A stretch of 60,402 bases of DNA, filler included, from Basidiobolus ranarum (Eukaryota): the NCBI GenBank assembly GCA_040143965.1. It is 6 parts of 6 records of this genome, joined end to end, with 100 filler letters (N's around TTAATTAATTAA, not from the genome) between each part and the next. Parts side by side here need not be neighbours in the genome. Positions count along the whole stretch, not along the records: positions 40,358 to 50,333 come from JASJQH010007634.1; 5 more parts are not named here. One strand, given 5' to 3'. The notes under the pieces were generated by a model, which searched no databases, had not been told where the DNA came from, and was given only the letters and a program-made list of their open reading frames with translations. Positions 1-52,160 of this stretch are shown here, piece after piece. The first letter of the stretch is position 1, and every line of letters begins with the position of its first letter. The translations under genes and the position numbers were made by a program.

Positions 1-2957
1 TTTTGAAGAGTCCAAGCCACACATCCAAACTGTGAATACTGTTGAACGTTCTGTGGAACAAGCACCAGAGCCGTCGGTTGAACTAGAAAAAACACCCGTC
101 ACTAACTTGGACAGTCATCCAGAAACGTCCGATGAAAAATTAGATAGTATACCAGATTCCATTGAAGAGGCAGAAAAACCTATTGTTAATGAATCGGACA
201 ATGTAGATGAGGAGATAAGCATTGAAGATGAAGCAAAGGAAACCCTAGAAGAGAAAAATGTGGTTTCGAATAAATTAGATGTTATCCTTCCTGCACCAAG
301 CGTACTAAATCATGAGCAAATGAATCATGTATCTTACCCTCCTAACATCCAGGCACCTTCTTCAGTTAGAGAAACAGGAAAGCTTCAGTATGATCGCTCA
401 TTCTTACTGCAATTTTGGGAAGTTTGCAAAGAGAAGCCAGTCAGCATGCCAAGTCTAGAGTCTCTTGGAATCGAGGAGAACACTGAAAGAAAGCCTAGTA
501 GTATAGGTAGAAGAGCTGGAACTACTGGAGGTACTGGGCGTGGTGGCTTTAAAGGACCGAATATCTTTCCTAATGATATGGGGTCATTTAAGCATACCCC
601 TCGCAATAACGAGGAGAGATTCCCAGGCCCTAATATGCACAGGCATAATGTTGGCGGATTCGGTCGTGGTATGGGTCCAAGAACAGCAAGTGGTGGCATG
701 CCCCCACCAGGAATGGGAATGGGAATGGGTAACATCGGTTCAAATCATAACATGAATGTTAATATGGGATCTAGAGGGGATAGCCGCAACTCCCGTTCCG
801 GTAGAGGCGATAAACGCAAACATGAACGTCCACAAATTGGCGGACCTACGATTTCACTCGATGAAGTGGCACCATTGGAAAATTCCGAAAACAGATGGGT
901 GCCTGTCTCTATAAAGCACTCCAATTCTAAGGAAGATGTAGATAAACGAACAGACATTGTGCGTAAACTTAAAGCCCTCTTGAACAAATTGACTTTGGAG
1001 AAGTTCGATGGTATTAGTGAAAAAATCACCGAGTATGGAAATCTTTCCACTCAGGAAAACGATGGAAAAACTCTTCAAACTGTGATTCAAATTACCTTCG
1101 AGAAAGCCACAGATGAGCCCAACTTCGTTTCTATATATGCTTCCTTATGTCGAAGAATGATGGACAAACTGAGTCCTGATGTCAAAGATGAGAATGTCAA
1201 GAATAAGGATGGTAAATATATCATTGGTGGTGCCTTGTTTCGTAAGTATCTATTGAGTAGGTGCCAAGAAGAATTTGAGAAAGGTTGGAAGGTAACTTCT
1301 CAGTTAGATTCGGCTGCCGAGGGCACTGAAGCACTGTTGAGTGACGAATACTATGTTGCCGCCAAGGCTAAGCGTCGTGGTCTAGGATTGATCATGTTCA
1401 TCGGTGAGCTATTCAAGTTGGGAATGCTAACCGAGCGTATTATGCATGAATGTATCAAACGTTTGCTCAGTAATGTTCAATCTCCGGAGGAAGAGGAAAC
1501 GGAGAGTTTGTGTAAGCTTATGACCACTGTTGGTAAGCAACTCGATCGTAAAGAGGCCAAAGCGTATATGGACACTTATTTTGCCCGTGTGAAGGAGATG
1601 TCAGTGAACCATAAGCTGAGTAGTAGAATTCGCTTTATGTTACTTGATATTATTGAGTTACGTGCACATAACTGGATTCCTCGAAGAGAAGCATCCGGAC
1701 CAAAGACCATTTCTCAAATTCACGAGGACGCGCTGAAGGAAAAAGAAGAAACGGCCGAAATGTTAAGGAAAACAACTAGTTCCGGAGGACGAGGTTATGG
1801 ATCTAATCATCACCAGCTTTCTCGCACTGGTTCCGAGCGTAGAGATAAACGACCTGGAGGCTCATCCCACGACGGTTGGAATACTGTCGGAAATAATATT
1901 AGTAACTCCTCTCGAAAGGTCGACCTCTCTGGATTCGGTAACTTCACTCGTAGCAAAGCCGGGACCCAGGTTAGCCTTGGGCCTGGAGGTGGCGTATTTG
2001 GTGTACTTGGAGGGGGCTCTAAAGGTTGGAAGAGCTCTGATTCCAAGGGTAAGGAAGAGACTACAAAACCTAAGCATCATGGCAATAGTATGAACATGTT
2101 CAGTGCTTTAATGTCCTCTGAAAGACCTAAGAAATCAAATGATGTTATCAAGGAGACCCCTACTCAAGAGAGAAAACCTTCCAATCCACTACCCGAAGCC
2201 ACTTCTGTTCCTTCAACAAAGAGTAAATTGAGTAAAGATGAATTGGATGCTAAAGTCAAAGCCATGGTTGAAGAGTACTTCTCAGTTCGTGATGTGAAAG
2301 AAGTGAAACTTTGTATTCGAGATCTAGGTGATGCTGAATACCACGAACATGTGATTTCGGAGTTTTTCTTCGAAACCTTTGACAAAAAGCTAGATCAGAT
2401 CAAGCAGACGAGTGGTCTCTTCAAGATCCTGGCAGCCGAAGGTATCATTGAAAAGAAAGCATTTATTGACGGCATTATTGCGGTAACTACAGAGTTGGAA
2501 GATATCTCCATTGATGTTCCACAGGCATTTAATTACATGGGGGTAATGATGGCAGGAACTCCTCTTGAACTACAAGATCTGTCACGGGTTTTGGAGCCAT
2601 TGACCAAATCGTCAGCTCGGATCTCTCCGGCCTCAAAAGTAGGAGCAGCTTATCTCAAGCAACTAAGAGATGATCAGGTAATGGGAAGACACGGATAAGT
2701 TTAACAATGTGAGAGAGCTCACAATCTTTGCTTTTTCAGGGTGAAAAGAAGCTAGCAACAGAGTACAACAAGTCCAAGTTGGATTTGAAGAAATTTCTCT
2801 CGGCAACCACACAAAGTGATGAAGATTTAGCTACGTATTTGGATTCAAATGTATGTGTTGTTCTACATCTTTCATCTTCACCTTTACCTTCACCAACCCA
2901 TGCACCATATTAACATCCAACTTATTGTAGGGGTTGACTTTCTTGACTCAAGCATAA
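1..2957 (+). CDS. TIF4631: Eukaryotic translation initiation factor 4G (5'-truncated; exons <1-2677, 2740-2850, 2931-2957)
   Basis: eIF4E-binding YxxxxLphi motif (YDRSFLLQF); MIF4G domain (LLNKLTLEKFD, FIGELFKLGML, LSSRIRFMLLD); C-terminal MA3-like domain (MVEEYFSVRD). GT-AG introns 2678-2739 and 2851-2930 give an in-frame TAA at 2955-2957. Confidence 0.95.
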
Positions 2958-7442: not shown

Positions 7443-9384
7443 CTAGCTTTCTTCATCAATTTCGTGCATTCTACCGGATTGCATAGCTTCGACAACAGGG
7501 TTTTTAATCTTAACAACGCCTGTTTTGTTTAGTCTTTCAAACAGGACGAACAGTCTCTCGGCCTCTTGTTCTTTCTCTTCATCTGTCATCGTTGAGAGGT
7601 CAGGAAGCTCATTATCTATGTATTGTCCGGTGACAGGATTTACAGCATATTTCTGAGGACATGAGTCGTCCTCGCCCTGTGAATAGGAAGTAGGATAAGG
7701 GAAGGGGATCCCACGATTCGTTAAGTAGCCTACTGCATTGCCATATCCCACCCGATCCACAAACTTGGAAGAGTCCTGGTCGCACAGGATGAACAGGAAC
7801 TCTCCGGCAGTATCCTTTGTGTGACTCAAAACGCCCGTAGTTAACAATGAGGTTAGAGAGTCAGAAAAACTTCGCCCTTTGCCTAACGGCTTGGAACGGT
7901 CACTGCGATAAAACGAATTAAAAATGTAGAACATAGGATATATATATGCGTAACGAGTTTAACATATTATCCGATAGTAAACACTCTTTCATCAAGAAGC
8001 AAGCATGGGTATTTTCCTTGGCGATATTATTCATAAGGATCAAGAGAGGAGGGAAAAACGTATCTAGAGAGGCCAGAAGATCAGATAAAGATTGGGATTC
8101 TTCTGAAAAACAACTATTCAATATAGATTTCAGCATTTCGATCAATGTCAACACTAGTATGTACGGCTCTTGGGAATCTTGCGGAAACCATAGAGGTTCT
8201 AAACTGGAAATTGACATGTTGAGTAATACATGTATTGCATGAGAATGAGGAGGTGATACAGGAGCGGAGTTTTTGAATGGGATTTCTGTTATCACTCGGA
8301 CTAAGATAGGTATAAGGCTGAATATATAATATAAGTTATGTAAATAATCTCAACGAAAGAACTAAAGTGCTCACCTTGAATACTCCAGCGACATTTTCTG
8401 CTTGGAAACCTCATCATCGTCTGCTTTGTCTTTGTAATCAGAACAGGGGGCATAGTTCGTTACCATGTTGAATAGCATTTTTAGATATTCGCTGATGATC
8501 ATCACACTTCAGATCCCGAATTTATACACTGCCCTATTATCTAAATCAGTATGTTAGTAGCCGATGAAACTTGCAAGAATACTAGTATTAAAGCACTAAC
8601 TTCATCAATGGCGCTTAGAAAGTCGCCGTTGTTTGCCAAAGTGTTCACAACTTTTGGGCTCGAAACAGTTGACAAAAATAGAATCCGTCCAAACAGAAAT
8701 TGCGAATCATTCGACTAAGAAGGAGACTAAAAGGATGTTTATATGTCAGATTTTATATTGGATAGGAATCAATGCTAAAAGAGTATTTACTTGAAATTTA
8801 GATACTAAAAGCTTTTCTCCTTCCAAACTGTGAAAAAATTTCACGGGTTCTGGATTCAAGTAATAAGCAATTCGCCAAACATTTTAAGCTTTCGTGTATT
8901 ACCACGGAATCTCCATAACTTTCACTTAAAAGGTCTGCGTGCCTCAGCAACATACCAATACCCTGACAATAAATATGTTGTAAGAAAATATTCAGGATTA
9001 AGGAAAAAAATTCTACACACTTTAGTAGTATAGAGACTTTTTGCAGCTCCAGAATCGCGGGATAACAACTTCAAACTTTGTAATTCATGTAGTAATGCTT
9101 TACGGCAAAGTAAGATTTAGAAAGTATAGAAAACAGTAGAGTAGATAAGAAGCAAACCTTCTTGGCTCCATGGAGTGTATACTTCATCCCCAGTTAAGTC
9201 AGAAACCAAAGTGGTGACTAGTTTTTGCCTAGACTGTAGCTCGATAGCTAAGCAGAAGTAAAATAAATAGAATTGTTATCTCGAAATATATGTTTAGAAA
9301 GTTACCTTGGTGTCCGACAAGGTTCAAGCTTGCTATGACAGCCTCTGAGCTATCCTTTTCCTGTAAAGAGATATAAGCGTCCAT
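7443..9384 (-). CDS. RIC8: Ric8/synembryn G-alpha guanine nucleotide exchange factor/chaperone, multi-exon
   Basis: Characteristic C-terminus VGYGNAVGYL...NPVTGQ...MTDEEKEQEAERLFVLFERLNKTGVVKIKNPV. The start at 9384 (MDAYISLQ) is inferred from the exon chain. Confidence 0.88.
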
Positions 9385-10003: not shown

Positions 10004-10103
10004 NNNNNNNNNNNNNNNNNNNNNNNNNNNNNNNNNNNNNNNNNNNNTTAATTAATTAANNNNNNNNNNNNNNNNNNNNNNNNNNNNNNNNNNNNNNNNN
10101 NNN
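10004..10103. other. Artificial contig linker N44-TTAATTAATTAA-N44
   Basis: 100-bp linker with stops in all six frames; identical at all five gaps. Confidence 0.97.
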
Positions 10104-24711: not shown

Positions 24712-26092
24712 ATGGATCCCGCAGATGCCGAGGGGTCCTCCAAACTGCTAGTGGATGAGCAAGGTGAGTTTCTTTTTACAACTATTTGAAGCCAAAGATA
24801 GATCCTGTATACTAGATAGAGCGAATTAAGAAACATATATACAGAGTGCAAAATTTGCTTTCTTATTCTTGGCTTACCCAAACATATTGACAAGCTATTT
24901 TTTCGCATGAATTGGCATCAGAATCTATTCACGACTCGGACATCGATTCTGTCAGTGAGTCAGTTACCTGGGTTGCTTGGTTTTGTTCACTCTCAGGGAA
25001 CGAATACTTGATAGAAGTTACGGACACTTTCCTTGAAGATGATTTCAATTTTACTGGCTTAGGTTCTACAGTACCTTTTTACCGAGAAGCTCTGGAGATG
25101 ATTTTGGATATTGAGCCTGGTTTGTTGGCATTTCTGTATGTATTGGAACTATAGTGTTTCTAACCATTTTTTGCCATTCATTTGTTTGCTATCTTTTTAG
25201 AGCGGAAGTACTCTGGAGCTGATACTAGTCTAATTGAGTCGTCCGCCGAACGACTTTATGGTTTAATCCATCAAAGGTATATCTTATCACGTCAAGGAAT
25301 GAATCAAATGGTACGCACAACATATAGAAAGCCACTGCATCAAATAATCACCTATTCAGTACCACTATGCTAACCTCTATATGTGTATTGAAACGGCCAG
25401 GCCAACAAATACGAGCGAGGCGACTTCGGACTTTGCCCAAGGTATTACTGTAATGGAACACCTATGATTCCATCCGGTAGATCTGACTCATTGGGCGTTG
25501 AACCAGTTAAGCTATATTGCCCAAACTGTTTAGATTTATACACACCGCCTAGTTCTCGATTCCAGAGTCTCGATGGTAACTTCAGTTAGACACCACTAAT
25601 GACAAAGCACATAGACTTATCTGAGTTCCTTTAGGGGCCTTTTTTGGGACCACCTTCGCCCATATCTTTTTCATGACGTTCTGCCCAAGCATTTATACTC
25701 ACTTTAATACAGGGACTTATACACCACGTATTTATGGTTTCAAGTTGAATGAACGCAGCAATGCTGGGCCACATAACCGATGGTTGCGTATGCGTTATAG
25801 CTTGAACGACGATTCTAGTGAATCCTTGTCGGAGTCGGACATCTCGTCAGATTCAGAAGGCTGTAGACAAATTGTTCCTGGTTTTAATGGGATGAGATTA
25901 AGAGGAGAAGAAGTGGAAAGTCTAACCAGTCCAGCACAGGGTGAAACCACCTCTCGACATGATGGTGCCAAGTCTGAGCGCTCATCGATGTCCCGTTTTT
26001 CTAGCCGCCAACCACCCGATGGCAGCAGTCTTTCACTCAAAGAAGAGAAGCATGAAAGCGGTGCCCATAATTCCTCAAGTAAGATAGGTTGA
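24712..26092 (+). CDS. CKB1: Casein kinase II regulatory beta subunit, 5 exons
   Basis: WVAWFCSLSGNEY, DDFNFTGL, LYGLIHQRYI, zinc ribbon CPRYYC...YCPNC, DGAFFGTTF, YTPRIYGFKL. The CKB1 versus CKB2 assignment is uncertain. Confidence 0.92.
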
Positions 26093-28255: not shown

Positions 28256-28995
28256 TGTTAAAGTATTTGGGAGCCTGTTGGAAGTGGTTAGGAGATTTGT
28301 GAAATTGGTGGTTTTCACTTATTGATTTATTGAGTAGAAAGTTGACATTTATAGTTTTGTCAAGATTTAACAAAACTAACATGTAGAATGTGTTTAGGAA
28401 GGTCCCAGAAACCTGTGCGCGAAGTTTGTGGCTTCTAACCCAAGTTTGAAAAATATATACATCTGAAAATTCCCAAGTTGGTAAAAATATTCCAAGTAAA
28501 TTCCAATTGAGAATAATGGGTAATATCTTAGTAAAATATAAGATAACCAAGTACTAAGCTATATATCACTATATAGATATTTAGCCAATGCTAACTTCAA
28601 CACTTTCCCTCAACTAAATAGTCATATAAACTATTCCTAAGGAAGGTCTAAATTTCTCAAATTTCTATCTAGCTAATGGTTAATATATCAGCAATCATGT
28701 CTTTGGTAGAAAAAAAAGTTAATTCAATAAACCTATTTGCTATAGTTTCTCTAATGAAATGATGTTTAATATCTATGTGTTTGCCTCAATTGTGAAACAT
28801 CGGTTTTCTAGCCAATTAGATACAACTTTGATTATCTTGAAATATTACAGTTGATAAATTTTAAGAATAGCCTAAATTTGTTAAGAGTCTTATTAACCAT
28901 ATCACTTCTTTTGTTACTTTACAGGTGGCCATATATTCTGCTTCTGTTGTTGAAAGTGCTATGGTAGGTTGTTTCTTTGAATTTCAAGAAATAAC
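28256..28995 (-). mobile_element. 3' end of a Ty1/Copia retrotransposon (family A): degenerate RNase H, polypurine tract, 3' LTR (28256-28602)
   Basis: Minus-strand translation IS*NSKKQPTIALSTTEAEYMA...DNQSCI*LA...KHIDIKHHFIRE...DMIADILT; PPT TTGAGGGAAAG (28613-28603) immediately before TGTTG; LTR TG...CA. Confidence 0.92.
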
Positions 28996-30179
28996 TGTTG
29001 AATAATTAATCTTTATTCAACATCTTAGTTAACTTTAGTTATGATGTATATATCAGAAACAGAAAGCAACATATCTATAGCCCCTATATTTTAAATAGGA
29101 ATATCTCTATATCTATACAACAAGTATGCCTTATTAACCCCATTTATTTATTATAGCTTATTACACAAACTCCTGAATATCTCAAACAATTGATTTACTT
29201 GTCTACTATATAAGTCACCATATACTCTTAAGAATAAAGCAACCAAAAACACACTATCATAAGTTGCTTCTAATACCCAAAGTCTACCCCATTATGTCAA
29301 GATCCTCCAATATGGTAGCAGCAAGTGAATTAGAGTCTTCATCCCAAAAAGAGATTAGTAATATTCCAACATTCAATGAGGGGGATTTCCATGAATGGAA
29401 ATTCAAGATGCAACTTGTACTTGAAGGGAAACATGTCTAGCAAGTAGTTTAAACAGATGAAGAAGAAGAAACTTCTGAAGAAGAAAGTACATATTCTGAT
29501 GCTGAAACAAAGAAGCCAACATGTAAAGAAGCCAAGGCAACCTTTGAAGAAAAAGACAGATTGGCATTTAGGGAAATATGTCTAAGACTGGGATTGCAAC
29601 AACTTATGCTAGTCAGAGATGCTGACTCTGCCAAGAATGCATGGGAAATCCTAGTGGAACATCATGAGCAAAAAGGGCTTGCTCACTTGATGATGCTACA
29701 AAGAAAATTCTTAAACTCTTGTATGTCTGAGGATTCAGATATTATGACATATGTAAATGGTGTCAAGAAACTTGCCCAACAACTGGAATCAGTGAATTAT
29801 GAAGTACCTGAAATGGATATAATTCTTACCATAATCAATGGTCTCCCTGAATCATATTCAGCCCTTGTACTCACTTTGGAAGCAATTGGGGATAAGCTTA
29901 CTCAGCATTATCTGATCTCTTGTCTATGTCAAGAAGAATTTAAAAGGAAAGACAAAAGTCAGCTTGCAGATGAAACAAAAACTACACAAGCATTTTATTC
30001 TCAAAATAGCCAACCAGAAAGGAGCACTGTGAAATGTTACAAATGTGGAAAACTGGGACATATAGCATGTTACTGCAGATCAAAGAAGAAATGGGTTTCA
30101 AAGAAAAAGGAAGCATATAACACCACTAAAAGAGGAAATGAACACTATGTACTTATGGCAACCTCTAAATCAGGAAATG
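28996..30179 (+). mobile_element. 5' part of a second Copia element (family B): LTR start plus disrupted gag (29294->30179)
   Basis: Starts with TGTTG, interrupting the RNase H above. Gag motifs FHEWKFKMQLVL, SAKNAWEIL, INGLPESY and zinc knuckle CYKCGKLGHIACYC; in-frame stops at 29438 and 29450; truncated by contig end. Confidence 0.88.
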
Positions 30180-40357: not shown

Positions 40358-40715
40358 CATCAATATGCTTCACCAGATGCCAACTGTAAAATGCCATGGT
40401 CTTTTAAGGTACTGTCCGAGATGATACAAAAAGAGAGAAAAGAAAATGAAAGCTAATATTTTTTCGTCCAATAGGTGCACAAACCAAAATTGTTTGAAGA
40501 CCACGCCAACCAGTAGCATTAGACGACTTTGGAACCGAGACCTTGCTGCAGTACTTAATTTCCGACATATCTTAGCTTCGCTTAGAGAAAAAGGTACCCG
40601 TCCTGACCGATTTATGCCCCAAAAAGCAGGTGAAAGAAAAGGCAAGCAAAAGGAAAGCCAAGAATCAAAAAGAATCAAACACTCTTCCTCAGTTATCGCT
40701 GCAGGACACCCATAG
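40358..40715 (+). CDS. Fanzor (eukaryotic TnpB-like RuvC nuclease) C-terminal fragment; exons <40358-40408 and 40475-40715
   Basis: Spliced peptide ...PTVKCHGLLR|CTNQNCLKTTPTSSIRRLWNRDLAAVLNFRHILASLREKGTRPDRFMP: zinc-finger half followed by the RuvC-III NRDxxAxxN motif (Asp codon 40539-40541) typical of TnpB/Fanzor1. GT-AG intron 40409-40474 with GCTAAT branch site; basic NLS-like tail. Confidence 0.82.
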
Positions 40716-40868
40716 TACAGGTAAGACTGTAGGTAAGATTTTAAATTTATTAATGTTGATCGTTCATCCCGGTCATTCGTCTGAATGGTTTTCTATGATT
40801 GTCTAATTTGAATTTCAGCTTGTCTAATTATTTATTGCAATCATCTAATTTTAGGTTAAAACCCTGTA
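40716..40868 (+). ncRNA. Candidate Fanzor omega-RNA scaffold region and right transposon end (TIR ends 40866, TA 40867-40868)
   Basis: 151 nt between the Fanzor stop and the element end, with hairpins TACAG-GTAAGA-CTGTA and GGTCATTC-GTCT-GAATGGTT and GTCTAATT repeats. The position matches where omega-RNAs are encoded in known Fanzor loci; RNA status is inferred. Confidence 0.5.
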
Positions 40869-41183
40869 GGGCCATTATATACATACATACATATATACTA
40901 GATTCAAGTTAACTGAACGTGTCCTAGCATCATCACCTATGGTTCAACAGATCATTGAGCGAATAGATTTCAATGGTGGCTGATTAAGTGGCCAAGTTAA
41001 GATCTCAATATTTTATTATCATTTCATATGTTAGAAACCATGCTTTTATTTGCCGTGACGTTTCTCACAGTAGCCAATAATTGAAACGAATATGGATGCA
41101 GGTGATATCGCGACTAGCATTTGATGTTTGAAATTCAACCATTATATAGAACTATATCCCCTTTTTGAAACTTCACTTTGAAT

Positions 41184-43710
41184 ATGAGTAACAATACACC
41201 AACGACACAAGAAGAGCTCCCCTCCGACGATAGAAATATCCTTATTAAGAATGCTGAAGAAGACTTTGAAAAGTTAATAATAGTGGATTCACCTCCACTC
41301 AAGAATATTCAAGAAAATGTGGATACACTGGTAAGCGAGACACCAAACGAATCCCAAGGTTCTATTGATCAGTCCATTACATTGTTACAAACTAATTCTG
41401 GTCAAGTGGAGCCTTTGGTTGAAGAACAAACCAATCCAGATACCACGAACGAAAATTTTGACTCCATGAAAGAAAAGAATCTTGAGGAGCAACTTCCTTT
41501 CCTTCAAAATAGTGGAATTCAAACAATTTCCCATGAAAACAATATACAAAATCAAGGATCAAACATACCATCTCAAACTTATGACAAAGTAACAGAAGAA
41601 GAACGCGAACTTTCAGAAAACTTGATAAGAAATGAAGCAATTCCAAGTAATTACCTGGAGATCTCCAACTTGGAGCAACAAGTATTACCTGTAGATCCAA
41701 CTCATGATCAAAAAGTTCAAGATCCAGTCAATGAAGTAAACGAATCACGTGGAAATAATACTTACCATGAGCAATATACACCAGTCGAGACTGCATTTAC
41801 CGAAGGTGACTTCAAGCCTAAAGAAACAGAAAATATTTCAAATCATCCTTTCACTGGTGGATTTCAGACGGCACCGCTGGAGTACAATCTCGCCAATAAT
41901 GATGAGAAACCAGCTGAAATAGTCGAATCTAACTCTGGCATAGTGGACTCTAGTAATGCTTCCCCTAGATTACTTGACAAGGGAAAAGGCAAAGAGGTGA
42001 TTAGTCCAGAAGAAAATTCTTCACTTGACTATGCTAGTCATGACAATCATAACAATCCTATGGGCAATAGTGACCTAGAATATCAACTGGATAATGAATT
42101 CGTGGATGCTATACCCATTGAATCACAAATATCGCCTACTTCTCCACACAACAATACCGAAATTGCTGCTGGGGTTGATCCTTTAGATATGCGTTATGAT
42201 TCTCAAGAACACCCAAATGATAATTTATCTACGGAGGTATCCAACTTGCCTGCTGACCCATTCCCAGTTCCAAGCGTTCTTGAAGTGATCCCTTCACATG
42301 TAGCAAGTGATCTTACTGGGTTCACAGACACAAAAGCTACCGATACTCCCTTACCAACTCAACAGCAAGCTATTCAAAGTGTGGGAACCACAGTAGCGAA
42401 AACAGAATATCAAATGAAGAGAGTTGAATGGATGCCTTTGAATTCCACGAATCCGCTGAAACTTTCCATAATCACACAAAATGAAAATGGACCGTGTCCT
42501 TTGCTAGCCTTATGTAACGTCCTCTTACTTCGTGGAGACATCAAAATACAACCGGCTGACAGGCCAGTGGTAGATGACGAGTACTTGACCAGTTTATTAG
42601 GGGAATATCTTCTTGACTTACACTCCACAGAATCTGAAGATATGTCAAACTTTAACAACGCCTTGGCGGTAATTCCTCTATTGCAAAGGGGTTTGGATGT
42701 GAATGTCCGATTCGACAACATTCGTGGATTCGAGAACACACCCGAATTATCTATGTTTGAGGCATTCAAGGTCGATCTGATTCATGGGTGGATTGTTGAC
42801 CCTGAAGAGGATTGGAACACATATAAAATTCTCACGGAGAAATGTGTCAATTACAACACAGCAGTTGATTTAGTGGTCAAAGGAGACGAAGCCGAGAAAG
42901 ATACCAATTTGAGCATCGACGAAAAAGATGCAATCGTTCATGAAGGTATTAACAATTTTTTTCATTTATCTTGCACCATCTAAGTTAGCTTCCCATTATC
43001 ATTACAGCCTTGGTTGTCCGACAGTTTTTGGAGAATACCGCTACCCAGCTTACCTATCATGGCCTATTGGCTATTTCTACTACGTTGCCACAAAATCACC
43101 TTTCGGTCTTATTCCGTAACAATCATGTAATCGATGGGTTTTGGTAGTTATCGATTGGTTACAACAATAACTAAATTTCTCTAGTTTTCCACTCTTTATA
43201 AACGAGCAGATGGAGAGCTATATACATTAGTAACTGACGCGGGATTCTTGGATTCTCCAAACGCGGGATGGGAGAGGCTGAGAGATATTGATCAGATAGA
43301 TTCGGAATTTGTGACTGGCACATTCCAGAAGATTGGGCCTAGTGGTGATTCTACGACTCAATCAGAGACTATAATAAATGAAGATGACTATGCCGATTTA
43401 ACTGAGCAGGAGCGTATGGATCAAGAGTGAGTAATAACCATATTTTTAGTCCATTCCTGACATGTTCTTAACTATGATATTGTGGCAATACAGTCTAGCA
43501 CTTGCCTTGAATTTGCAGCAACAAGAGGAAGATGGGAAGAAACGCGAACAAGCCCAAATCGCCAACCAGAAGCTACAGCAGCATAATGCAAGCGGGCCTG
43601 GTAAAACTCAAGAGCGTCCTGAAGCATCGGAAGCACATGAGCAAGCAACTTCAGTAGCCTCATCATCGATGAATCCAAAGAAAAAGAAAGACAACTGTAT
43701 GATTTGTTAG
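41184..43710 (+). CDS. MINDY-family K48 deubiquitinase (MINDY-1/2, Miy1-like), 4 exons
   Basis: Catalytic QNENGPCPLLA, GLDVNVRF, HGWIVDP, QLTYHGL, FRNNH|FSTL, LVTDAGF; MIU-like SLALALNLQQQE; CaaX terminus KKKKDNCMIC. Confidence 0.93.
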
Positions 43711-44868
43711 CTCTTTCTCTCTTGGGATTACGTTTCCTATTGGATAATAAGGTTTATTTCACTCTTTTTCTCTCATGGTATCATGCACAGTTATTTTATT
43801 CATACTCTTATGTGTCTCAACTCACTCTATGACAATTAGCTTGTTGAGTGTCTATTCATATTCTTTTCGTACTCGGAAATAAAGCAAATCTTTTCATGAT
43901 ATTCCTACGTGAACACAGTGCCGTAACTTAAAGTGAAGGCGGCGCCTCGTTTGGAAGTTATTTGGATGCAGCTATAGATCCATGGACAGAAAATCCAGTA
44001 GCTTTGATGTGGCTATTTGTTTTTATGTGATATTTAGGCATACATTGTATTGATTCGACGTATACCATGTGAATATTTAATGATGCTTATGGTACATTTT
44101 AATACAATCCTAAGACCGATCTCAGCCACAGAATGGATATCCTCGAGGTTGCTGGCATTGTGCTGCCTTCAAGTTTGTTTTCTATTATGTAGGTACACGC
44201 ACTGACACTTTGGGATTTCGATGTCTACGAAGTTTTCCAAATCATGTTTGTCATTCATGAATGCATAAATTGTTACATCGAAGGGGATGAAAGATCGTGT
44301 AGTTGATACCTGTGACGCTATTCCTGATATCACGTGATGTTCCATCATTCCTACGATGAAGTCGTGAATTTAGTTGTTTCGTAACCGGGGAATATATTAC
44401 ATAATAATCAATAAAACCCCGAATTTTTAAAAAATCATTGAAGGGTTTTCTAGGTAGAGAGCGTAATTTTGGCTTGCTCTAATTTTTCCTTCATATCATA
44501 CACGTACACTTCCTAACTTCTCTATAGTGAAAACTGCACTTGGCCAAATTCATAAAACGTTATTCCATTGTCCAAATACATTGTTCCATCTACCCATCTA
44601 CAGTATCAGTTCGGTAATTTTTTACGCCTCATCTTCCCCTTTTTTTTACCATCCGTAATATATTATTTGGTTTAACTTCAGTTACATTTGAAGTATTGAA
44701 CCGTCCTTTTTTCTTACTCAGAGGCTGTTATTCTTCTACTAAAAACCTGCGAGGTTTATTTTTGGAGGAAGGAAATCTCCACAATACCTTTTATCGGTTC
44801 CAGCTTAATAACTGTTTACAGAGTACATAACTACATAACATTCGTTGAAATCGAGAATATTTTAAAAA

Positions 44869-47534
44869 ATGTACGAGGATGACATGACGGCTTCTTTTTT
44901 TCAGTCTAGTTCGGAATACACTTCTCCTTTACAGTCATCTTTTTTCTCAACTACCTCGTTGGACCCAACCTTTGGTGACTTGGCGAACCCTTGGGGACCT
45001 CAAGGTGGAGGTTCAATTAATGTAGAAACTGTTCTTCGTAAGTGAAAAGTTGCGAAGTGGCATCTTATTCTCGTTGAATTAATTTTTCACTCCAAATAAT
45101 TATATAGATGGCATAAGGCTGCCGCTGATTTACGAAACTGCCTTTAGCATGGCCGCTCCAATAGATAATAAGATTACTCTGGAGTCTTTAAATAAAATAC
45201 TAAGTGTTAGTGGGCTGTCTTCTGCCATGGTGGAAAAGGTGCAAATACATTGGATTTTATTCATATTACTTTCACATGTAATACTTACAGTATTGCTTTT
45301 ACTTTAGATATATACTGTTGCACTTCCATTTGATCGTAGCAGCATTGATCTAAATGCGTTTAATGTAGTACTTACATTGGTAGCACTCAGTCAAAAAAAT
45401 ATGGGTAAGGAAGAAGAATGGTTTATTTTGTTTTCCTGTTAACGCCTAAAACTCTTTACCTAAACATGTTTAAAACAATAGATGTGTCACTAGAAAACAT
45501 CATTTCTCACAAACAAGGTAAGCTCTTGACTTGAAAAGCAACTCTGTCCGTGAAATTAAACCAAGCTAATTAATATACTTTTATGATATATTTAGACCTA
45601 CCAGTGCCGTCCTTACCCAATCTCTCAAATATTGATTTCACCAAGAGGCCAGTACACCCAAGAAACCCTTCTAGTTCGCAAATCAAACCTGAGCCCTCTG
45701 CTAGTGAGTCAGATCCTTGGCGAGCTAACGGTGATTCCTCCGCTGTTGCACCGGTGAATTCAATTATACCGGATAAACCTTTAAACTTGTTCCAATCGGA
45801 CGGACCACCCTCGTCATCTAGTCGACTTTCAACTATCTCTAGTAACCTAGAGACATATCAATTGTTTGCTGATAATGATTTAATTTCGATAAAAATCTCT
45901 CCACAGAGAGGGGGTATGATATTTAAGCATATCAATTACGTAGTGGAATCTAAGGTGAGTATCGACAGTCCTTCTACTTGTATTCTTATTTTCAATTAAA
46001 GCCTGTATGTTATTGATGCTGTCTTGGTTTGATCTAGCAACGTCTATCAAGCGTGGTAAGAAGGTATAGCGATTTCTGGTGGCTTTTGGAAGTCTTAACC
46101 AGAAGGTACCCATCTCGTATGCTGCCTACATTGCCACCCAAGAGAATTGGAGGTAAGCTAAGAAAATATCAAGGATGACTTCTAGTAACGATCCAAATAA
46201 CGACTGATTGTTCAGGGGACGAAGCATTTCTCGAACGAAGAAGAAAAGGATTAGCAAGATTTATCAATTTCATTGCACGTCACCCAACCTTAAAAAATGA
46301 TGATGTGGTTATAGTTTTTCTAACTGAGCCATCGGTAACTAATCTTATTTATTGAAAGATCCATCGATTCTTGACTGAACTAACACGAATGTTCGTTCCT
46401 TTGAAGGACATGGGAGGCTATCGAAGATTACATGAAATCAACATTGACGAAGAGTTCAAAAAGGTAGAAGTGACCGATCGAATGAAAACCGGTGTACCTC
46501 ATGATCTCGCGGAGAGATTAAACAAGCTTCGTGAGAGATTGGATGCCTCTGCCGAGTACTATGGTAACCAGTGCACTCTAATGGAGCGTATAACTAAACG
46601 ACAAGAAGGTACGCAATGTGCATTATCAACCCTTGGAGCTATGTACTCATTTGAAATATTCTAGGTTCTGCTGAGGACATGCTTCGGTACAGTAAAGCCT
46701 TGACGTAAGTTACAATAACAACTTGTATTTGCTTGGCTGGCACTTAAACCACACCTTGTTATCTCAATCAGGTCCTTGGCAGGAAATGAGAGCGAATGCC
46801 ATGATGCTGACTGCTACAAGTGTCCACAAATTGCTCATGGATTTGATGTGGTGGCTGGTTGTTTCAAAAAAGTGGGCACCCTTATTAAAGATGAGGTAGG
46901 GACAACTATGATGTGGTAGCTTTAGCCGATCGAAACTGATCGACATTTTTGTTTTCAGGTTGAATCTTCGATCAACGGTGTCGTGGAAAATCTAAGACGT
47001 CAAAAGGAAATTATCGTTGCTTTCAAGGTAGATATTTGAACCATCCCTTCGAGTTGAAATGTATCGAATGGCCCATTTTAAATACGCTTTCATTCTAGGA
47101 ACTTCTTGATCGTAAAGACAAAATCGTGTATGGAGAGACGGATTCTCTTGTTAGTCGCATCAAGTCCAACCAGGAGAAGTTAAATAGTCTTCGAGATTCT
47201 GGCGGAGTTGAGAAAGAAATCCAGAGACTCATCACCATCATCGAACAGGTACCTGTGCTTCTAATGTGGTGGAAAGTATCGTATTCTAATGCTTAAACTT
47301 GCTTTAACATAGGATCAGAAAGAGATCGTAAACTCTAGAAATCATGATATCTTTATCCAATACTCTCTTTGGTGCGAGTTACAGTTTTATCATCAAAACG
47401 CTGCTTTTGTCACTCTATTGTATCAGCATTATGTTAGTGATCAGATTAAGTTTGCTACCGGATTAACACAGGCATGGAAAGATTTATCAATCACCGTAAA
47501 TGACCTACCTATGGATATTAGTCGGTTTTCTTGA
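44869..47534 (+). CDS. MVP1: Sorting nexin Mvp1/SNX8 (PX-BAR), multi-exon
   Basis: [66 protein letters not shown]-terminal [12 protein letters not shown] motif; C-terminal BAR-like helices; stop 47532-47534. Confidence 0.9.
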
Positions 47535-50148
47535 ATAATATTACTCTATTATCACTCGTCTACCACTTAGTTACCTTCTATATACAAGATAAACCCTCAC
47601 CTTCTTCGCTTCTATTTTTTGTTATTTACCGTACACTATTCATATATTTATACATGCCTACACACATGACATCATACTACTTGCTTCATCGATATAAAGC
47701 CATCTGTATCATCTGACTTTCCACTATCCAAGTAAGATCACAGCATTCATGTGATGATATGGGCTTTAAGCTAGGTATAGACTTCTTCCTAGCATCCCAA
47801 CCATCTTTGTACCAAGGCAGATTTGACGAGAATTGGTCCACGAGTCCAGATTCAGGAAGAATTTTACTGATTTGACCAGCCGGATATTCTTTTAAGATGA
47901 TCACCTTTATTGGCAATATATAACTCACAGGAAATGCAAGCTAAGATATCTCTATTTGTAATACATCCGATATCCTTTAAGAATCTCTATTAAACAGAAT
48001 ACAGTGAAATGCAAAGGGTTTCCAAACAATATCCAGTGAATACAGTAGACATGGCTCAAGTGACACAATAGTTTGCTTCTCAATTGTGGATTACTTGGAA
48101 AATCATTTTTCAAGCATACAGTGGCAAGATACATCGGTACTAGATGAGTGATTAGTAGGGGGGAACATGCACTCGTCCAAACCAATGGTCTTCCTGTGAC
48201 TCACATAGATGACTGTTATTCGATTCCGTACACTTAGTTACCTTAGTTACTTTATTTGTACTGGTTGTCCAATTTAGTGATTTATTACATACTACAAGCA
48301 GTGAAAGAATTGATGGATTTGGGAGTTGACTGCATCAATACCAACCGAACCAAACCTTAGAAATCCATGGAATGTTTCGCCACATACTAATACTATCGGA
48401 TGATTCGTAAGGACTTGTACTAGATGGGGCTTGATTTCGTTGGAAATGCATTGGACTTTGAGCAATTAGGGCCACATCTAATAAGTATTCCCAGTACATT
48501 TTCTACATGCGAGAGTGGCCAATGGCAACTGATGTACATGCTACAAGCCAATCAAGTGGAATAGACACGCGTTGTTATGATAATCATGAATTCGCTTTTT
48601 TTTATCCCATTCAAGCATACCATAGCAGTCAGCCATCGAGAAAGCACTTGAATCTCTGGGGAAAGGAGGTAGATTCAATCCATCGCTTCTTAGTTCAATC
48701 CACCAGAGACACAATAATGCGTTTTTGGACGTATTTTCTAATACTAATAGGTGACAGACCCAGATACAGATCAGGAATTAGTCAGTTATGGATCGACACA
48801 TGCATTTATTTGGTTCATTGTTCCATAGATAATTCCAAGTGTTGAACCTGATTTTTGATTTGGACCCTCTTATTCTCTCATTTGACCACCCTTTTATGAA
48901 TATTGTGACACTTGTTAGCTTAGATACAAAGCTTATCTGTAGATAAAGCAATATCCTCTCAAAAGGCAACATGATATCGCTGATCGGTCTGTCAGTTGAA
49001 ATGCTCATTTTTATGCCTTGGATAGAGCATAATTCTAGACAGAAAGGGCACCATGTTCAGTGATTTCCTTATCTTTCCCCTGGCTATGTCGGAGGGCTTC
49101 TCACTTGGAGGCTAGGATTAATCTAGGATTTCAAATGATATGATAATATATACATACCTTTGAGCTTCGATGAGAATTGTGTGACAAGATCAGCCACACG
49201 TAAAGATGCTATGTTTACTAGGCAATTGGGTGCCAATTTACTAAAACAGTTATCGCAAATCAAACAATGAACCTAAATTGAGTAAGCATAAGATTGCACC
49301 TACCGATTATCGATAAATCTCATCAAAATTCCCTAAATAGACAGACTGATAACTATATCCACATGACTGAAGATGGCAATATTTCGTAAGGTTGACAGTG
49401 AGATCTCTCTTCCAGTAAGCATCTGTGTGGAATACTTTTTAACAAAACACTGGTGCTAGAATGGGGCATTCTTGTAATGATTTGTACTAATGGAATAAGG
49501 AAAAACGATGGCCAAATTCCAAACACCTAAATAAGCGTTTATTTAGCTATAAATATGTAGTGCAAATCTGCAATTTTATTTCCTTTTTAGGTATGCTTCT
49601 GTGGTTGCAAATCACTCTTTTACACAGTTAGCTTGGATAGCAAAGGGAATTCTACTATTCTATTTTGTAGTCAGTCGATGCTCTCCCACTAGAAATTCAG
49701 ATGTGCATAGGTATATGGCGTTCAAAACATCACCAGCACTGATGGCCCTTCAAAGGCTTCAAGGACTAGAACAGCCCTACTCTAGCCCAACAAGCACCGA
49801 TTGACTGGATAGAGTAAAGCTGATCCATTTGTTGTTCTACTTGACTCAGTGATCGTACTGCTCTACCTGTAGCCTTATCGGTACAAGTAAGGCGGGGTGT
49901 GAAACCCCTTTTCCAATCACAAATCACTTGTAGTTGAAATTTCGCAATTGATTCTAGATTTTTCAGTTGAGTAAATTTGCGAACGAGTTACATATTCATA
50001 AAAATATATAAGAACATTGAATTCTTTGAGGAGCAGAGAAATCCACTACAGTTTCTTGCGAGATATAATCCCGCTCTCTTTACATCCTTTTATCTTGGCC
50101 ATAGATTGATGTCCCTCACTGGACAATGCTAATTTTGAGTACGTTAAC

Positions 50149-50333
50149 ATGTCTGAATCACCCAAAGAGCGCAAAGCCTCCGCAAATGGCACCACATTTT
50201 TCGACATACTCTGTAATGAAGATCCAGAAGGCGTGTTAGAAAAGGAAAATCAGGAGCCACCAGATGAGATGCTCAACAGCCGTAAAAAAAGTGCTTGCAT
50301 AAAGCAACTCTATCTCAACCGTAAATTACTTCA
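50149..50333 (+). CDS. Unidentified ORF start truncated by contig end (possibly repeat-encoded)
   Basis: ATG-initiated open frame running into the linker; no recognisable motif. Confidence 0.25.
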
Positions 50334-50433: not shown

Positions 50434-50587
50434 TAATTAATAAATAAGAACATATACCCACTCAATTATATTCTAACTTGGCTTATTTATTTATTGACTT
50501 TGTTTAAATTGATAAATAAATATTACACCTTCTGGTGTTTATCATCCCCCCCTAACCCTATGTTGAATAAAGATTATTTATCCAACA
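50434..50587 (-). mobile_element. Start of a family-B-like LTR inserted into a Copia gag
   Basis: Minus strand TGTTGGATAAATAATCTTTATTCAACA matches TGTTGAATAATTAATCTTTATTCAACA at 28996. Confidence 0.6.
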
Positions 50588-51058
50588 GAAAGTTTCCCAT
50601 AGACTATCAAAGCATTTTCTTTATTCCTTTGGTTGGATCCTAATTTGCCTAAATTTTCATCCAGAAGTCTGCCAAATACATAATTTAAGGTCAAATTTTC
50701 AGATTTTGATTCTAGAGCTATTACTGGGCTCTGAAACTTTTGTGGCAAACTACTCAGCACTGTAACCATGATTTCTTGATTAGTAGTAGGTACTCCAATG
50801 CATTCCATTTCATCCACTAAAATAGTGACTCTAATGATTAATGATTTAATGTCTTCTCCTGGCTTTATCTTTAAGTTAAAGAATTGTCTTCTTAGAAACA
50901 TCTTGTTTGCAGCAGGACTTGCTTGGTAGGTGTCTTCTAAGGCTCTCCATACCTTCTTGGCAGTTTCAGTTCTAGAACATTGAATTGGCAAATTTTCTTT
51001 AACATTAAGACAACTTGTTTTAAAGGCACTTTGTTCCTTTTTAACCTGGAGTAAAACT
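50588..51058 (-). mobile_element. Copia gag (UBN2-like) remnant
   Basis: TAKKVWRALEDTYQ...NKMFLRRQFFNLK...VLSSLPQKFQ...GRLLDE; homologous to the gag at 29561-30000. Confidence 0.85.
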
Positions 51059-51405
51059 TGTTAAAGTATTTGGGAGCCTGTTGGAAGTGGTTTGGAGAAT
51101 TAGAGGAATTGTTGGTTTTCACTTATCAATTTATTGAGTAGAAAGTTGACATTTATAATTTTGTCAAGATGTAAACAAACTAACATGTATAATGTGTTAA
51201 GGAAGGTCCCAGGAACATGTGTGCAAAGTGTGGGGCTTCTATCACAAGTTTGAAAAATCTATATATCTGAGATCTTCTAAGTAGGAAAAATGTTCTAAGT
51301 AAATTTCAACTGAGAACAATGGATAATATCTTAGTGAATTATAAGAAAACTAAGGACTAAGCTATATATGACTATATAGGTGTTTAGCCAAAGCTAATCT
51401 CAACA
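51059..51405 (-). mobile_element. Copia family A LTR (no TSD)
   Basis: Full-length TG...CA copy similar to 28256-28602; flanks AAACT/CTAAG do not match. Confidence 0.88.
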
Positions 51406-51798
51406 CTAAGCAAGTCTCTTCCAAGCTGCCAAGAAGATTTCCTATTACTGCAGATACTCCTCCTGCAGCCAACTGGACTGTATGCTACTTCAGCAATGCT
51501 GGTTATCTTCCTATATCTGAGCAAAGAAAATATCTCAAGGAGATAGGTATTTATATGCCAAGAATTATTAACCTTGAATATATTTCTAGAAACCTGTTAG
51601 AATTTATACTAGACCAGGATATTGCTGATCTTTTCATTGAAGTAGTCAAGGATCATCTTGAATGGGACCTCTTTGATCATACTTTTAGACAGCATATTGA
51701 CAGCCCTCTTTTTGCACCTTTTTCATTAGAAAAGGAACTCTTAGCCAGATTTTCTTGTCTGCTAAAAAACTCTCCCTCTCTTCAAGTCACCAATTTTA

Positions 51799-52160
51799 GT
51801 GTTCAGACAATGCTAATTTTAACATTTGGGAGTCTGTTGGAAGTAGTTTGGAGAATTAGAGAAATTGGTGGTTTTCACTTATTGATTTATTGAGTTGAAA
51901 GTTGTCATATATAGTTTTGTCAAGATGTAACCAAAATAACGTGTTGAATGTGTTAAAAAAGGTCCTAGGAGCATGTGTGCAAAGTTTGGGGCTTCTTGTG
52001 CAAGGTTGAAAAAATTTATATATCTGAGATCTAAGTTGGTAAAAATATTCAAGGTAAATTCTGATTGAGAATAATGGGTGATATCTTAGTGAAATATAGG
52101 ATAACCAAGTACCATGCTATTTATGACTATATCGGTGTTTAGACAATGCTAATTCCAACA
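51799..52160 (-). mobile_element. Copia family A LTR (51825-52160) fused to a 26-bp duplicate of the opposite LTR end (51799-51824)
   Basis: GTGTTCAGACAATGCTAATTTTAACA directly precedes TTTGGGAGTCTGTTGG; the copy ends GTGTTTAGACAATGCTAATTCCAACA. Confidence 0.82.

What the first reader, a model, noticed from the sequence alone, without database searches (positions are those of the whole stretch)
40358..40715. Intron-containing Fanzor (eukaryotic RNA-guided RuvC nuclease) C-terminus hidden at a contig start
Seen: removing a 66-nt GT-AG intron (40409-40474, branch GCTAAT, contains an in-frame TGA) joins two frames into VKCHGLLRCTNQNC...RLWNRDLAAVLNFRHIL...RPDRF, followed by a lysine-rich tail. 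Established: a zinc finger followed by NRDxxAxxN is the RuvC-III catalytic segment of TnpB/Fanzor, and fungal Fanzor1 proteins sit in TIR elements and can carry introns and an NLS. Inference: this is a Fanzor1 from an early-diverging fungus, possibly a lineage with no characterised Fanzor. The visible part has no disabling mutation and keeps its CpGs, unlike the Copia debris here, which suggests a young or unsilenced copy. RuvC-I/II lie beyond the contig edge, so activity cannot be judged.
Basis: partly seen in the sequence, partly recalled or inferred. Interest (0 to 1): 0.9.

Follow-up and report, generated by a model that had tools for sequence, protein, structure and literature searches.

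The report
Fanzor1 gene tail in Basidiobolus
This is the last quarter-or-less of a Fanzor1 gene (a transposon-borne RNA-guided DNA cutter already known to be common in early-diverging fungi), cut off by the end of an assembly contig of the fungus Basidiobolus ranarum, so it is a correct but fairly ordinary identification.

Summary
Window 40359-40715 (+) is two exons split by a 66-nt GT-AG intron (40409-40474) with an in-frame TGA. Splicing gives a 96-codon open frame.

- **Splice support:** the join recreates ...VKCHGLLRCTNQNCL..., 16/17 identical to a Parasitella parasitica protein. It raises the score against a profile of full-length relatives from 74.0 to 99.7 bits.
- **Family:** that profile hits solved Fanzor1 structures: PpFz1 at E=1.4e-150 and SpuFz1 at 8e-79. 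Exon 2 alone hits only these two.
- **What is visible:** the second Cys pair of the zinc finger, the WNRD RuvC-III motif and a basic tail. RuvC-I, RuvC-II and the first Cys pair lie beyond the contig start.
- **Contig start:** it is real. The neighbouring MINDY gene is 100% identical to a Basidiobolus ranarum protein on a 9976-bp contig, exactly this piece's length.
- **CpG:** the contrast with Copia is also real.
- **Cautions:** a 10-nt tandem duplication shifts the tail frame relative to one paralogue. The two annotated paralogues look defective, and no full-length Basidiobolus copy was found.

Verdict: a new member of a known kind, with activity unknown. Interest is low to moderate.

The parts
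40359..40408 (+). Last 50 nt of an upstream exon, open to the contig start. It encodes ...INMLHQMPTVKCHGLL plus 2 nt of an Arg codon. PTVKCHGLL matches the P-x-V-x-C-H-G-L-L segment that precedes the second zinc-finger Cys pair in Fanzor1 relatives.
   Evidence: the HMM alignment starts at residue 6 of the spliced peptide; relatives' sequences.
40409..40474 (+). 66-nt phase-2 GT-AG intron: 5' site GTACTG, branch-like GCTAAT at 40452-40457, in-frame TGA at 40422-40424.
   Evidence: sequence; the join adds 25.7 bits and gives 16/17 identity over the junction to P0010.
40475..40715 (+). Terminal exon. It holds the Cx4C Cys pair, W-N-R-D with the putative RuvC-III catalytic Asp, the LNFRHIL...RPDRF helix region, a basic tail and the TAG stop at 40713-40715.
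40476..40493 (+). Second Cys pair (C-T-N-Q-N-C) of the CCCC zinc finger of the TNB/NUC domain. Both Cys sit in columns that are invariant or at least 90% conserved in 16 relatives.
   Evidence: The CCCC finger in SpuFz1 is from PMC10432273 (passage).
40539..40541 (+). GAC codon for Asp22 of exon 2 (WNRD). It aligns with the D of WNRD in PpFz1 and SpuFz1. It is inferred to be the third RuvC catalytic residue, which is D606 in SpuFz1.
   Evidence: alignments; invariant column. D606 as the third catalytic residue is from PMC11423790 (passages). The mapping of chain position to D606 is my inference.
40660..40679 (+). Exact 10-nt tandem duplication (AAGAATCAAA twice) in the tail-coding region. Downstream of it the paralogue P0021 matches the other reading frame.
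   Evidence: exact repeat; P0021 matches the main frame up to ...KQKESQES; the rest of P0021 matches the frame of 40636-40803, 12/19.
40716..41183 (+). 3' flank up to the ATG of the next gene. By analogy with SpuFz1, the guide-RNA (omega RNA) scaffold and the transposon right end are expected here. Neither was located.
   Evidence: No Rfam match. Fold z-score +1.03, with 168 of 200 shuffles folding as well. No repeat elsewhere in the window beyond matches of 29 nt or less. The analogy is from PMC10432273 (passages).
41184..42980 (+). First long exon of the neighbouring host gene, a MINDY deubiquitinase (B. ranarum K7432_010713). It is not part of the element but sets its outer limit and identifies the contig.
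   Evidence: 100% identity, 98% of the query covered, PF04424, contig of 9976 bases.

Best explanation
Window 40359-40715 is the 3' end of a Fanzor1 gene. Fanzor1 is the eukaryotic, transposon-borne relative of bacterial TnpB. The gene lies in the genome of Basidiobolus ranarum and is truncated by a real contig end.

The visible part is two exons joined across a 66-nt intron. They encode:
- the second Cys pair of the TNB-domain zinc finger;
- the RuvC-III helix with its catalytic Asp (WNRD..AAVLNF);
- the RPxRF segment;
- a modestly basic tail that may act as a nuclear-import signal.

Mechanism, inferred by homology and not shown here: a full-length protein would bind a guide RNA transcribed from the transposon's right end, just downstream of the stop codon. 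It would cut double-stranded DNA that matches the guide next to a short transposon-adjacent motif, using the D-E-D RuvC site.

The element is probably multi-copy in this genome. There are three loci with this C-terminus, two of them at contig ends (inferred for P0021), which would explain why the assembly breaks inside the gene.

Whether this particular copy is whole and active cannot be judged. I put about 40% on an intact full-length gene beyond the edge and about 60% on a truncated or decayed copy.
For: **Shown**
- Exon 2 alone hits only Fanzor1 among 177,635 distinct solved sequences (PpFz1 2.4e-7, SpuFz1 0.0045).
- 106 representatives reach E<=1e-3, and the match sits at the C-terminal end in the long ones, for example 586-645 of 672 and 732-781 of 807.
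- The full-length relatives carry DPGRRD, IDEY.TS, CP.C and WNRD. As a profile they hit PpFz1 at 1.4e-150 and SpuFz1 at 8.1e-79.
- The splice is supported by homology: 99.7 against 74.0 bits, and 16/17 identity over the junction.
- From alignment column 1104 on, 17 of 18 invariant or >=90% conserved columns are kept.
- The closest hits are B. ranarum K7432_011095 (92% BLASTP identity over 65% of the query; 89%) and K7432_012806 (81%, partial).
- CpG o/e is 0.67, host-like, against 0.0 in Copia gag.

**From the literature**
- The Fanzor motif D-X-[TS][TS]-X-X-C4 finger-X(5,50)-RD (PMC3627910, abstract passage).
- The catalytic D-E-D triad (PMC11423790, passages).
Against: - Only about 96 of an expected 600-800 codons are visible. 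RuvC-I, RuvC-II and the first Cys pair are off the contig.
- Pfam finds nothing in exon 2 alone at E<=10.
- In 10 relatives Pfam gives only sub-threshold Cas12f1-like_TNB matches, in 5 of 10, at 15-19 bits against a cut-off of 26.3.
- The tail carries a 10-nt tandem duplication that shifts the frame relative to one paralogue.
- Both annotated paralogues look defective. K7432_011095 lacks the roughly 78 profile columns that hold RuvC-II and the first Cys pair, and has Tyr at the first Cys of Cx4C. K7432_012806 lacks one residue in the RuvC-III helix.
- No full-length Basidiobolus protein appeared. This is weak evidence, because transposon genes are often left unannotated.
- No guide RNA, inverted repeat or second copy of the 3' flank was found.
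- Splicing is not shown by RNA.
Confidence: 0.93

Rival explanations
1. The locus is a dead remnant: a 3' fragment or decayed copy of a Fanzor1 element with no intact upstream gene and no activity.
For: - A frame shift in the tail from a 10-nt tandem duplication, relative to paralogue P0021.
- The other two B. ranarum copies in the protein collections are fragmentary or defective.
- No full-length Basidiobolus relative in three searches.
- In S. punctatus only 19 of 42 Fz loci are full-length (PMC10432273, passage).
Against: - The visible 96 codons have no stop.
- The intron signals are intact.
- 17 of 18 conserved columns are kept, including both Cys and the catalytic Asp.
- The shifted part lies in the non-conserved tail after RPxRF.
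- CpG content is host-like.
Confidence: 0.55
2. The frame is a chance open reading and the 'intron' is not real. The NRD-containing peptide only resembles TnpB/Fanzor by accident.
For: - Pfam finds nothing in the 79-residue exon.
- A similar short 'RLWNRE' peptide occurs by chance at 25541-25585 (-), antisense to another ORF.
Against: - E=3.1e-23 to a B. ranarum protein, and 106 representatives at E<=1e-3 in 1.84 billion.
- Specific hits to solved Fanzor1 only.
- The join adds 25.7 bits and matches relatives residue for residue.
Confidence: 0.01
3. It belongs to another TnpB-derived group (Fanzor2, or a direct bacterial TnpB acquisition) rather than Fanzor1.
For: - One relative (P0036) gives a weak match to NCBIfam guided_TnpB: E=0.0011, 18.3 bits against a cut-off of 100.
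- All these groups share the zinc finger plus RD.
Against: - The relatives' profile hit three Fanzor1 sequences and no Fanzor2, TnpB or Cas12 chain among its 5 hits at E<=1.
- The nearest full-length relatives are fungal proteins of 589-807 residues, within or near the reported Fz1 size range (PMC11423790, passage).
Confidence: 0.02

Closest known systems
Parasitella parasitica Fanzor1 (PpFz1; PDB 9cf0-9cf3)
   Same: - It is the best solved match. Exon 2 residues 1-47 align to chain 1207-1253 at E=2.4e-7, with C-x4-C, WNRD, AAVLNFR.IL and RP..F shared.
- The profile of the window's relatives matches it at 1.4e-150 over nearly the whole protein.
- It is an RNA-guided DNA endonuclease with a 5'-ATN TAM (PMC11423790, passage).
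   Different: - Only the last 96 or so codons can be compared.
- The window gene has an intron between ...HGLLR and C..., which is not comparable with an expression construct.
- PpFz1 has a roughly 100-residue FRI insertion in RuvC that binds cyclophilin. Whether the Basidiobolus protein has one is unknown.
- The host phylum differs: Mucoromycota (recalled) against Basidiobolomycota.
Spizellomyces punctatus Fanzor1 (SpuFz1; PDB 8gkh)
   Same: - The same C-terminal layout: CTN.NCL, then WNRD, then RP..F (E=0.0045).
[quoted passage not shown]
   Different: - It is more distant, at 20.9 bits.
- After the RD, SpuFz1 reads MLSTCN where the window and its clade read LAAVLN.
- No inverted repeat or guide RNA could be found here.
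Uncharacterised 'hypothetical proteins' of Coemansia spp., Dispira parvispora, Phycomyces blakesleeanus and Helicostylum pulchrum
   Same: They are the closest full-length relatives by sequence, with 49-67% identity over the exon-2 core. They carry DPGRRD, IDEY.TS, CP.C and WNRDLAAVLNFRHIL.
   Different: - None has been characterised.
- They are annotated as hypothetical.
- Many are fragments.
Bacterial TnpB (IS200/IS605, for example ISDra2)
   Same: It is the ancestor family: a RuvC nuclease with a zinc finger before the RuvC-III RD, guided by an RNA from the transposon end (PMC10432273 and PMC3627910, passages).
   Different: - No TnpB model reaches its threshold on the relatives.
- The host is eukaryotic, the gene has an intron and the protein is longer.

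Membership tests
Fanzor1 (motif of Bao & Jurka 2013: D-X(125,275)-[TS]-[TS]-X-X-C4 zinc finger-X(5,50)-RD) | RuvC-I catalytic Asp | not testable with these tools
   It lies upstream of the contig start at 40358. No whole genome is held. It is present as DPGRRD in full-length relatives.
Fanzor1 | RuvC-II Glu followed by [TS][TS]-X-X and the first Cys pair (IDEY.TS..CP.C) | not testable with these tools
   It lies off the contig. The paralogue K7432_011095 as annotated lacks exactly this segment.
Fanzor1 | C4 zinc finger | tested here: inconclusive
   Only the second pair (C-x4-C, 40476-40493) is visible. Both Cys are in conserved columns.
Fanzor1 | RD of RuvC-III, 5-50 residues after the finger | tested here: met
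   R21-D22 lie 14 residues after the last Cys. These columns are invariant in 16 full-length and 8 C-terminal sequences. They align with the RD of PpFz1 and SpuFz1.
Fanzor1 | Closer in sequence to Fanzor1 than to Fanzor2, TnpB or Cas12 | tested here: met
   the only related solved sequences at E<=1 are three Fanzor1 proteins. The other two hits, an ATP synthase b subunit and CagS-like 2g3v at E 0.09-0.23, are noise.
Fanzor1 | Guide (omega) RNA encoded at the 3' end or right end of the element | tested here: inconclusive
   No Rfam match. No fold signal in 40700-40990, z=+1.03. No second copy is available for comparison. RNA runs are not available.
Fanzor1 | Residence in a DNA transposon with terminal repeats and target-site duplication | not testable with these tools
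   The left end is off the contig and there is only one copy in the window.
Prokaryotic TnpB (NCBIfam NF040570 guided_TnpB; Pfam PF07282 Cas12f1-like_TNB) | Score above the curated cut-off of the family model | tested here: not met
   - Exon 2: no Pfam match.
- Relatives: PF07282 at 15.2-18.7 bits against 26.3, in 5 of 10.
- NF040570 at 18.3 bits against 100, in 1 of 3.
- This is a superfamily relation only.

The most novel reading that the evidence does not exclude
Basidiobolus ranarum carries a live, intron-bearing Fanzor1 family, which would be the first from Basidiobolomycota. Its copies keep host-like CpG content in a genome that has wiped every CpG from its Copia elements. That would mean an RNA-guided transposon nuclease that escapes, or is exempt from, the genome defence acting on retrotransposons. 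It could also be a source of a new Fz1 editor with its own TAM.
Probability: 0.2. Interest if true: 0.45.

Novelty: new member of a known kind. Interest (0 to 1): 0.25.

Why it matters
Fanzors are the only known eukaryotic RNA-guided DNA nucleases and are being developed as compact genome editors. Each new lineage can bring a new TAM and a new guide-RNA design.

This fragment shows that the family is present, and probably multi-copy, in Basidiobolus. I found no paper that mentions Fanzor or TnpB together with this genus (supplementary tables of the 2023 surveys could not be read).

On its own, though, it is a truncated piece of a family already reported as widespread in fungi 'incertae sedis'. 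It adds a data point, not a new principle.

The CpG contrast with Copia hints at how this genome treats DNA transposons and retrotransposons differently.

Tried and rejected
- **Pfam on exon 2:** nothing at E<=10, because the piece is too short for the family models.
- **Whole-genome search:** no genome is held.
- **Second Fanzor-like hit at 25541-25585 (-):** E 0.16-3.9. Rejected as chance. It is a 10-15-residue 'RLWNRE' match, antisense to the ORF at 25392-25589 (+). That ORF looks to me like casein kinase II beta; this name is recalled and not tested.
- **Rfam on 40358-41300:** no match at E<=1.
- **Folding of 40700-40990:** z=+1.03, with 168 of 200 shuffles folding at least as well.
- **Self-BLAST of 40358-41168 against the window:** only matches of 29 nt or less, in a simple repeat.
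- **Bacterial promoter/terminator scan:** 3 sites against 2.8 expected. Irrelevant for a eukaryote.
- **Metagenome scan:** 2 loci. L001 is an intronless full-length relative at 63% identity, useful only to show that the intron is not universal. L002 (41% over tail residues 31-78) was dropped as a probable low-complexity match and not examined.
- **MAFFT placement of the first 8 residues of the spliced peptide:** unreliable, because it scattered them over columns 999-1094. I therefore left the six conserved columns in that span out of the 17/18 count.
- **PF26935.1:** this precomputed label sits on 7 of 19 hits and 6 of 6. The local Pfam copy did not return it, so I cannot name it.

Full report
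**What the window is.** The 60,402-base window is six pieces joined by N / TTAATTAATTAA / N spacers (5 spacers). The pieces are 10003, 9996, 9980, 9978, 9976 and 9969 bases long. The finding sits at the first bases of the fifth piece (40358-50333). The long ORF 450 nt downstream (41184-42980) is 100% identical, over 98% of its length, to the Basidiobolus ranarum protein K7432_010713. This is a MINDY deubiquitinase (PF04424), and its contig is 9976 bases, exactly the length of the piece. So the piece is a whole contig of a B. ranarum assembly, and the 'contig start' is real. NCBI places the species in phylum Basidiobolomycota under Fungi incertae sedis.

**The observation.**
- The frame is open from 40359 and reads ...PTVKCHGLL.
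- GT lies at 40409-40410 and AG at 40473-40474.
- A CTAAT branch-like motif lies at 40453-40457, inside GCTAAT at 40452-40457.
- The intron carries an in-frame TGA at 40422-40424.
- The second exon reads CTNQNCLKTTPTSSIRRLWNRDLAAVLNFRHILASLREKGTRPDRF..., ending at TAG 40713-40715.
- Unspliced, the frame stops at codon 22. Spliced, it has 96 codons and only the final stop.

**Is the splice real?** RNA reads could not be consulted, so the evidence is comparative.
- An HMM of 16 full-length relatives scores the spliced peptide at 99.7 bits, in one unbroken alignment over profile positions 491-581. Exon 2 alone scores 74.0 bits over 503-581.
- The 17 residues centred on the junction are 16/17 identical to a Parasitella parasitica protein (P0010...KVKCHGLLRCTNQNCLK...).
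- They are at least 12/17 identical in 26 of the 257 proteins stored at that point.
- A metagenome relative (L001) reads the same segment in one uninterrupted 748-codon frame. The intron is therefore a lineage feature, not a family constant.
- Introns in Fanzor genes are documented (Jiang et al. 2023, PMC10530073, passages).

**What family.** Pfam finds nothing in the 79-residue exon, but sequence searches are clear.
- The exhaustive phmmer search of 1.84 billion representatives gave 106 proteins at E<=1e-3 and 2 at E<=1e-10. In the long ones the match lies at the C-terminal end.
- The word-indexed search for longer proteins gave 19 hits: 1 Basidiobolus, 16 Coemansia, 1 Parasitella and 1 unnamed.
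- Full-length relatives of 589-807 residues show DPGRRD, IDEY.TS, CP.C, CHGLL.C....C and WNRDLAAVLNFRHIL.
- As a profile, those relatives hit solved Fanzor1 structures: PpFz1 (9cf0) at 1.4e-150, SpuFz1 (8gkh) at 8.1e-79 and Guillardia theta Fz1 (9cer) at 4.7e-9. No Fanzor2, TnpB or Cas12 chain appeared at E<=1.
- The window's exon 2 alone hits only PpFz1 (2.4e-7) and SpuFz1 (0.0045). It aligns C-x4-C, WNRD and RP..F.
- From alignment column 1104 on, the window keeps 17 of 18 invariant or >=90% conserved columns. The exception is Pro for a near-invariant Arg after RF.

The published Fanzor/TnpB signature is D...[TS][TS]xx-C4 finger-X(5,50)-RD (Bao & Jurka 2013, PMC3627910, abstract passage). 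The window shows the second half of the finger and the RD. The third catalytic residue is an Asp on the RuvC helix, D606 in SpuFz1 (Xu et al. 2024, PMC11423790, passages). The window's Asp (40539-40541) aligns with the D of WNRD in both structures. That this is D606 is my inference.

**How it would work.** This is inferred by homology.
- In S. punctatus the element is a roughly 2.1-kb unit: one ORF between 30-nt inverted repeats.
[quoted passage not shown] Its last 14-15 nt, beyond the element, act as the guide (Saito et al. 2023, PMC10432273, passages).
- Here the corresponding stretch must lie in 40716-41183, before the MINDY gene.
- I found no Rfam match, no unusual folding (z=+1.03) and no second copy in the window. 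The guide RNA and the right end therefore remain unlocated.

**State of the copy.**

For integrity:
- The visible frame has no stops.
- The splice signals are intact.
- The conserved residues are kept.

Against integrity:
- An exact 10-nt tandem duplication at 40660-40679 lies in the tail. The paralogue K7432_012806 (P0021) follows the window's frame up to ...KQKESQES (48/59 identical). It then continues in the window's other frame (12/19). The affected part lies after RPxRF in the non-conserved basic tail, so it need not be disabling.
- The two B. ranarum paralogues in the collections look defective. K7432_011095 (191 aa) aligns to the profile on both sides of a gap of about 78 columns that holds RuvC-II and the first Cys pair (hhalign probability 99.4%). 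It reads Tyr where the window has the first Cys of Cx4C. It also reads SSNR before it, which equals the translation of the window's intron 3' end, so it is probably a mis-modelled or deleted copy. K7432_012806 is partial and lacks one residue in the RuvC-III helix.
- No full-length Basidiobolus protein appeared. This is weak evidence.

I put about 40% on an intact gene beyond the contig edge.

**CpG.**
- The fragment has 10 CpG in 358 nt (o/e 0.67). That is close to the median of all 358-nt windows (0.72), and 58% of those windows are at or above it.
- It is like the host ORFs: MINDY 0.65 and eIF4G 0.74.
- The two Copia-type gag pieces lie at 29453-30179 (+) and 50581-51060 (-), with PF14223 at 1e-29 and 3e-27.
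- They sit inside the two longest CpG-free stretches of the window: 28802-30179 (1378 nt) and 50434-51940 (1507 nt). Both are at contig ends, and TpG o/e in the first gag ORF is 1.67.

'Young or unsilenced' is one reading of it. Another is that whatever process removes CpG simply does not act on this element.

**Novelty.**
- Fanzor1 was described in Spizellomyces, Rhizopus, Allomyces, Phycomyces and Mucor in 2013 (PMC3627910, table passage).
- 3655 Fanzors were catalogued in 2023 (PMC10530073, passage).
- Full-text searches found 0 papers with Fanzor plus Basidiobolus, 0 with TnpB plus Basidiobol..., and 0 with Fanzor plus Entomophthor....
- Yoon et al. 2023 (PMC10711439) has none of the six taxon or intron terms I searched.

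**Verdict.** The identification is correct. This is a new member of a known kind, truncated and with its activity unknown.

Noticed in passing
window 28802-30179 and 50434-51940: These are the two longest CpG-free stretches of the window (1378 and 1507 nt). Each lies at a contig end and each holds a Copia-type gag ORF: 29453-30179 (+) and 50581-51060 (-). TpG o/e in the first gag ORF is 1.67. Host ORFs and the Fanzor fragment have CpG o/e of 0.65-0.74. This suggests a CpG-removing process aimed at these retrotransposons.
   Followed up: partly
window 40660-40679: An exact 10-nt tandem duplication (AAGAATCAAA twice) in the tail-coding region. It shifts the frame relative to paralogue K7432_012806.
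   Followed up: yes
whole window; spacers at 10048, 20144, 30224, 40302, 50378: The window is six whole contigs of a fragmented assembly, in falling order of length (10003 to 9969 bases), joined by N/TTAATTAATTAA/N spacers. Features at piece ends are true contig ends.
   Followed up: yes
window 41184-42980 (+): A MINDY deubiquitinase gene (PF04424), 100% identical to B. ranarum K7432_010713 and only 64% identical to the B. meristosporus homologue. Its long N-terminal part is low-complexity.
   Followed up: partly
window 2-2695 (+) and 7446-7958 (-): Host genes: an eIF4G-like ORF (MIF4G, MA3 and eIF_4G1 domains) and a Ric8/synembryn exon.
   Followed up: no
window 25392-25589 (+) / 25445-25585 (-): An ORF that looks like casein kinase II beta (name recalled, not tested). 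Its antisense frame reads ...SRLWNRELGG..., a chance look-alike of the Fanzor RuvC-III motif.
   Followed up: partly
L001 42-2288 (+): A 2615-base metagenome contig with an uninterrupted 748-codon frame. It is a full-length, intronless Fanzor1 relative, nearly the same as P0013, with about 330 nt of 3' flank that could hold its guide RNA.
   Followed up: no
protein P0002 (B. ranarum K7432_011095): The annotated 191-aa model joins the mid-part of a Fanzor1 straight to the C-terminus. It skips the RuvC-II and first-CxxC segment, and it reads four residues (SSNR) that equal the translated 3' end of the window's intron. It is probably a mis-modelled or internally deleted paralogue.
   Followed up: partly
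(precomputed domains): Many full-length relatives carry the precomputed label PF26935.1. The local Pfam copy does not return it, so its name is unknown to me.
   Followed up: no
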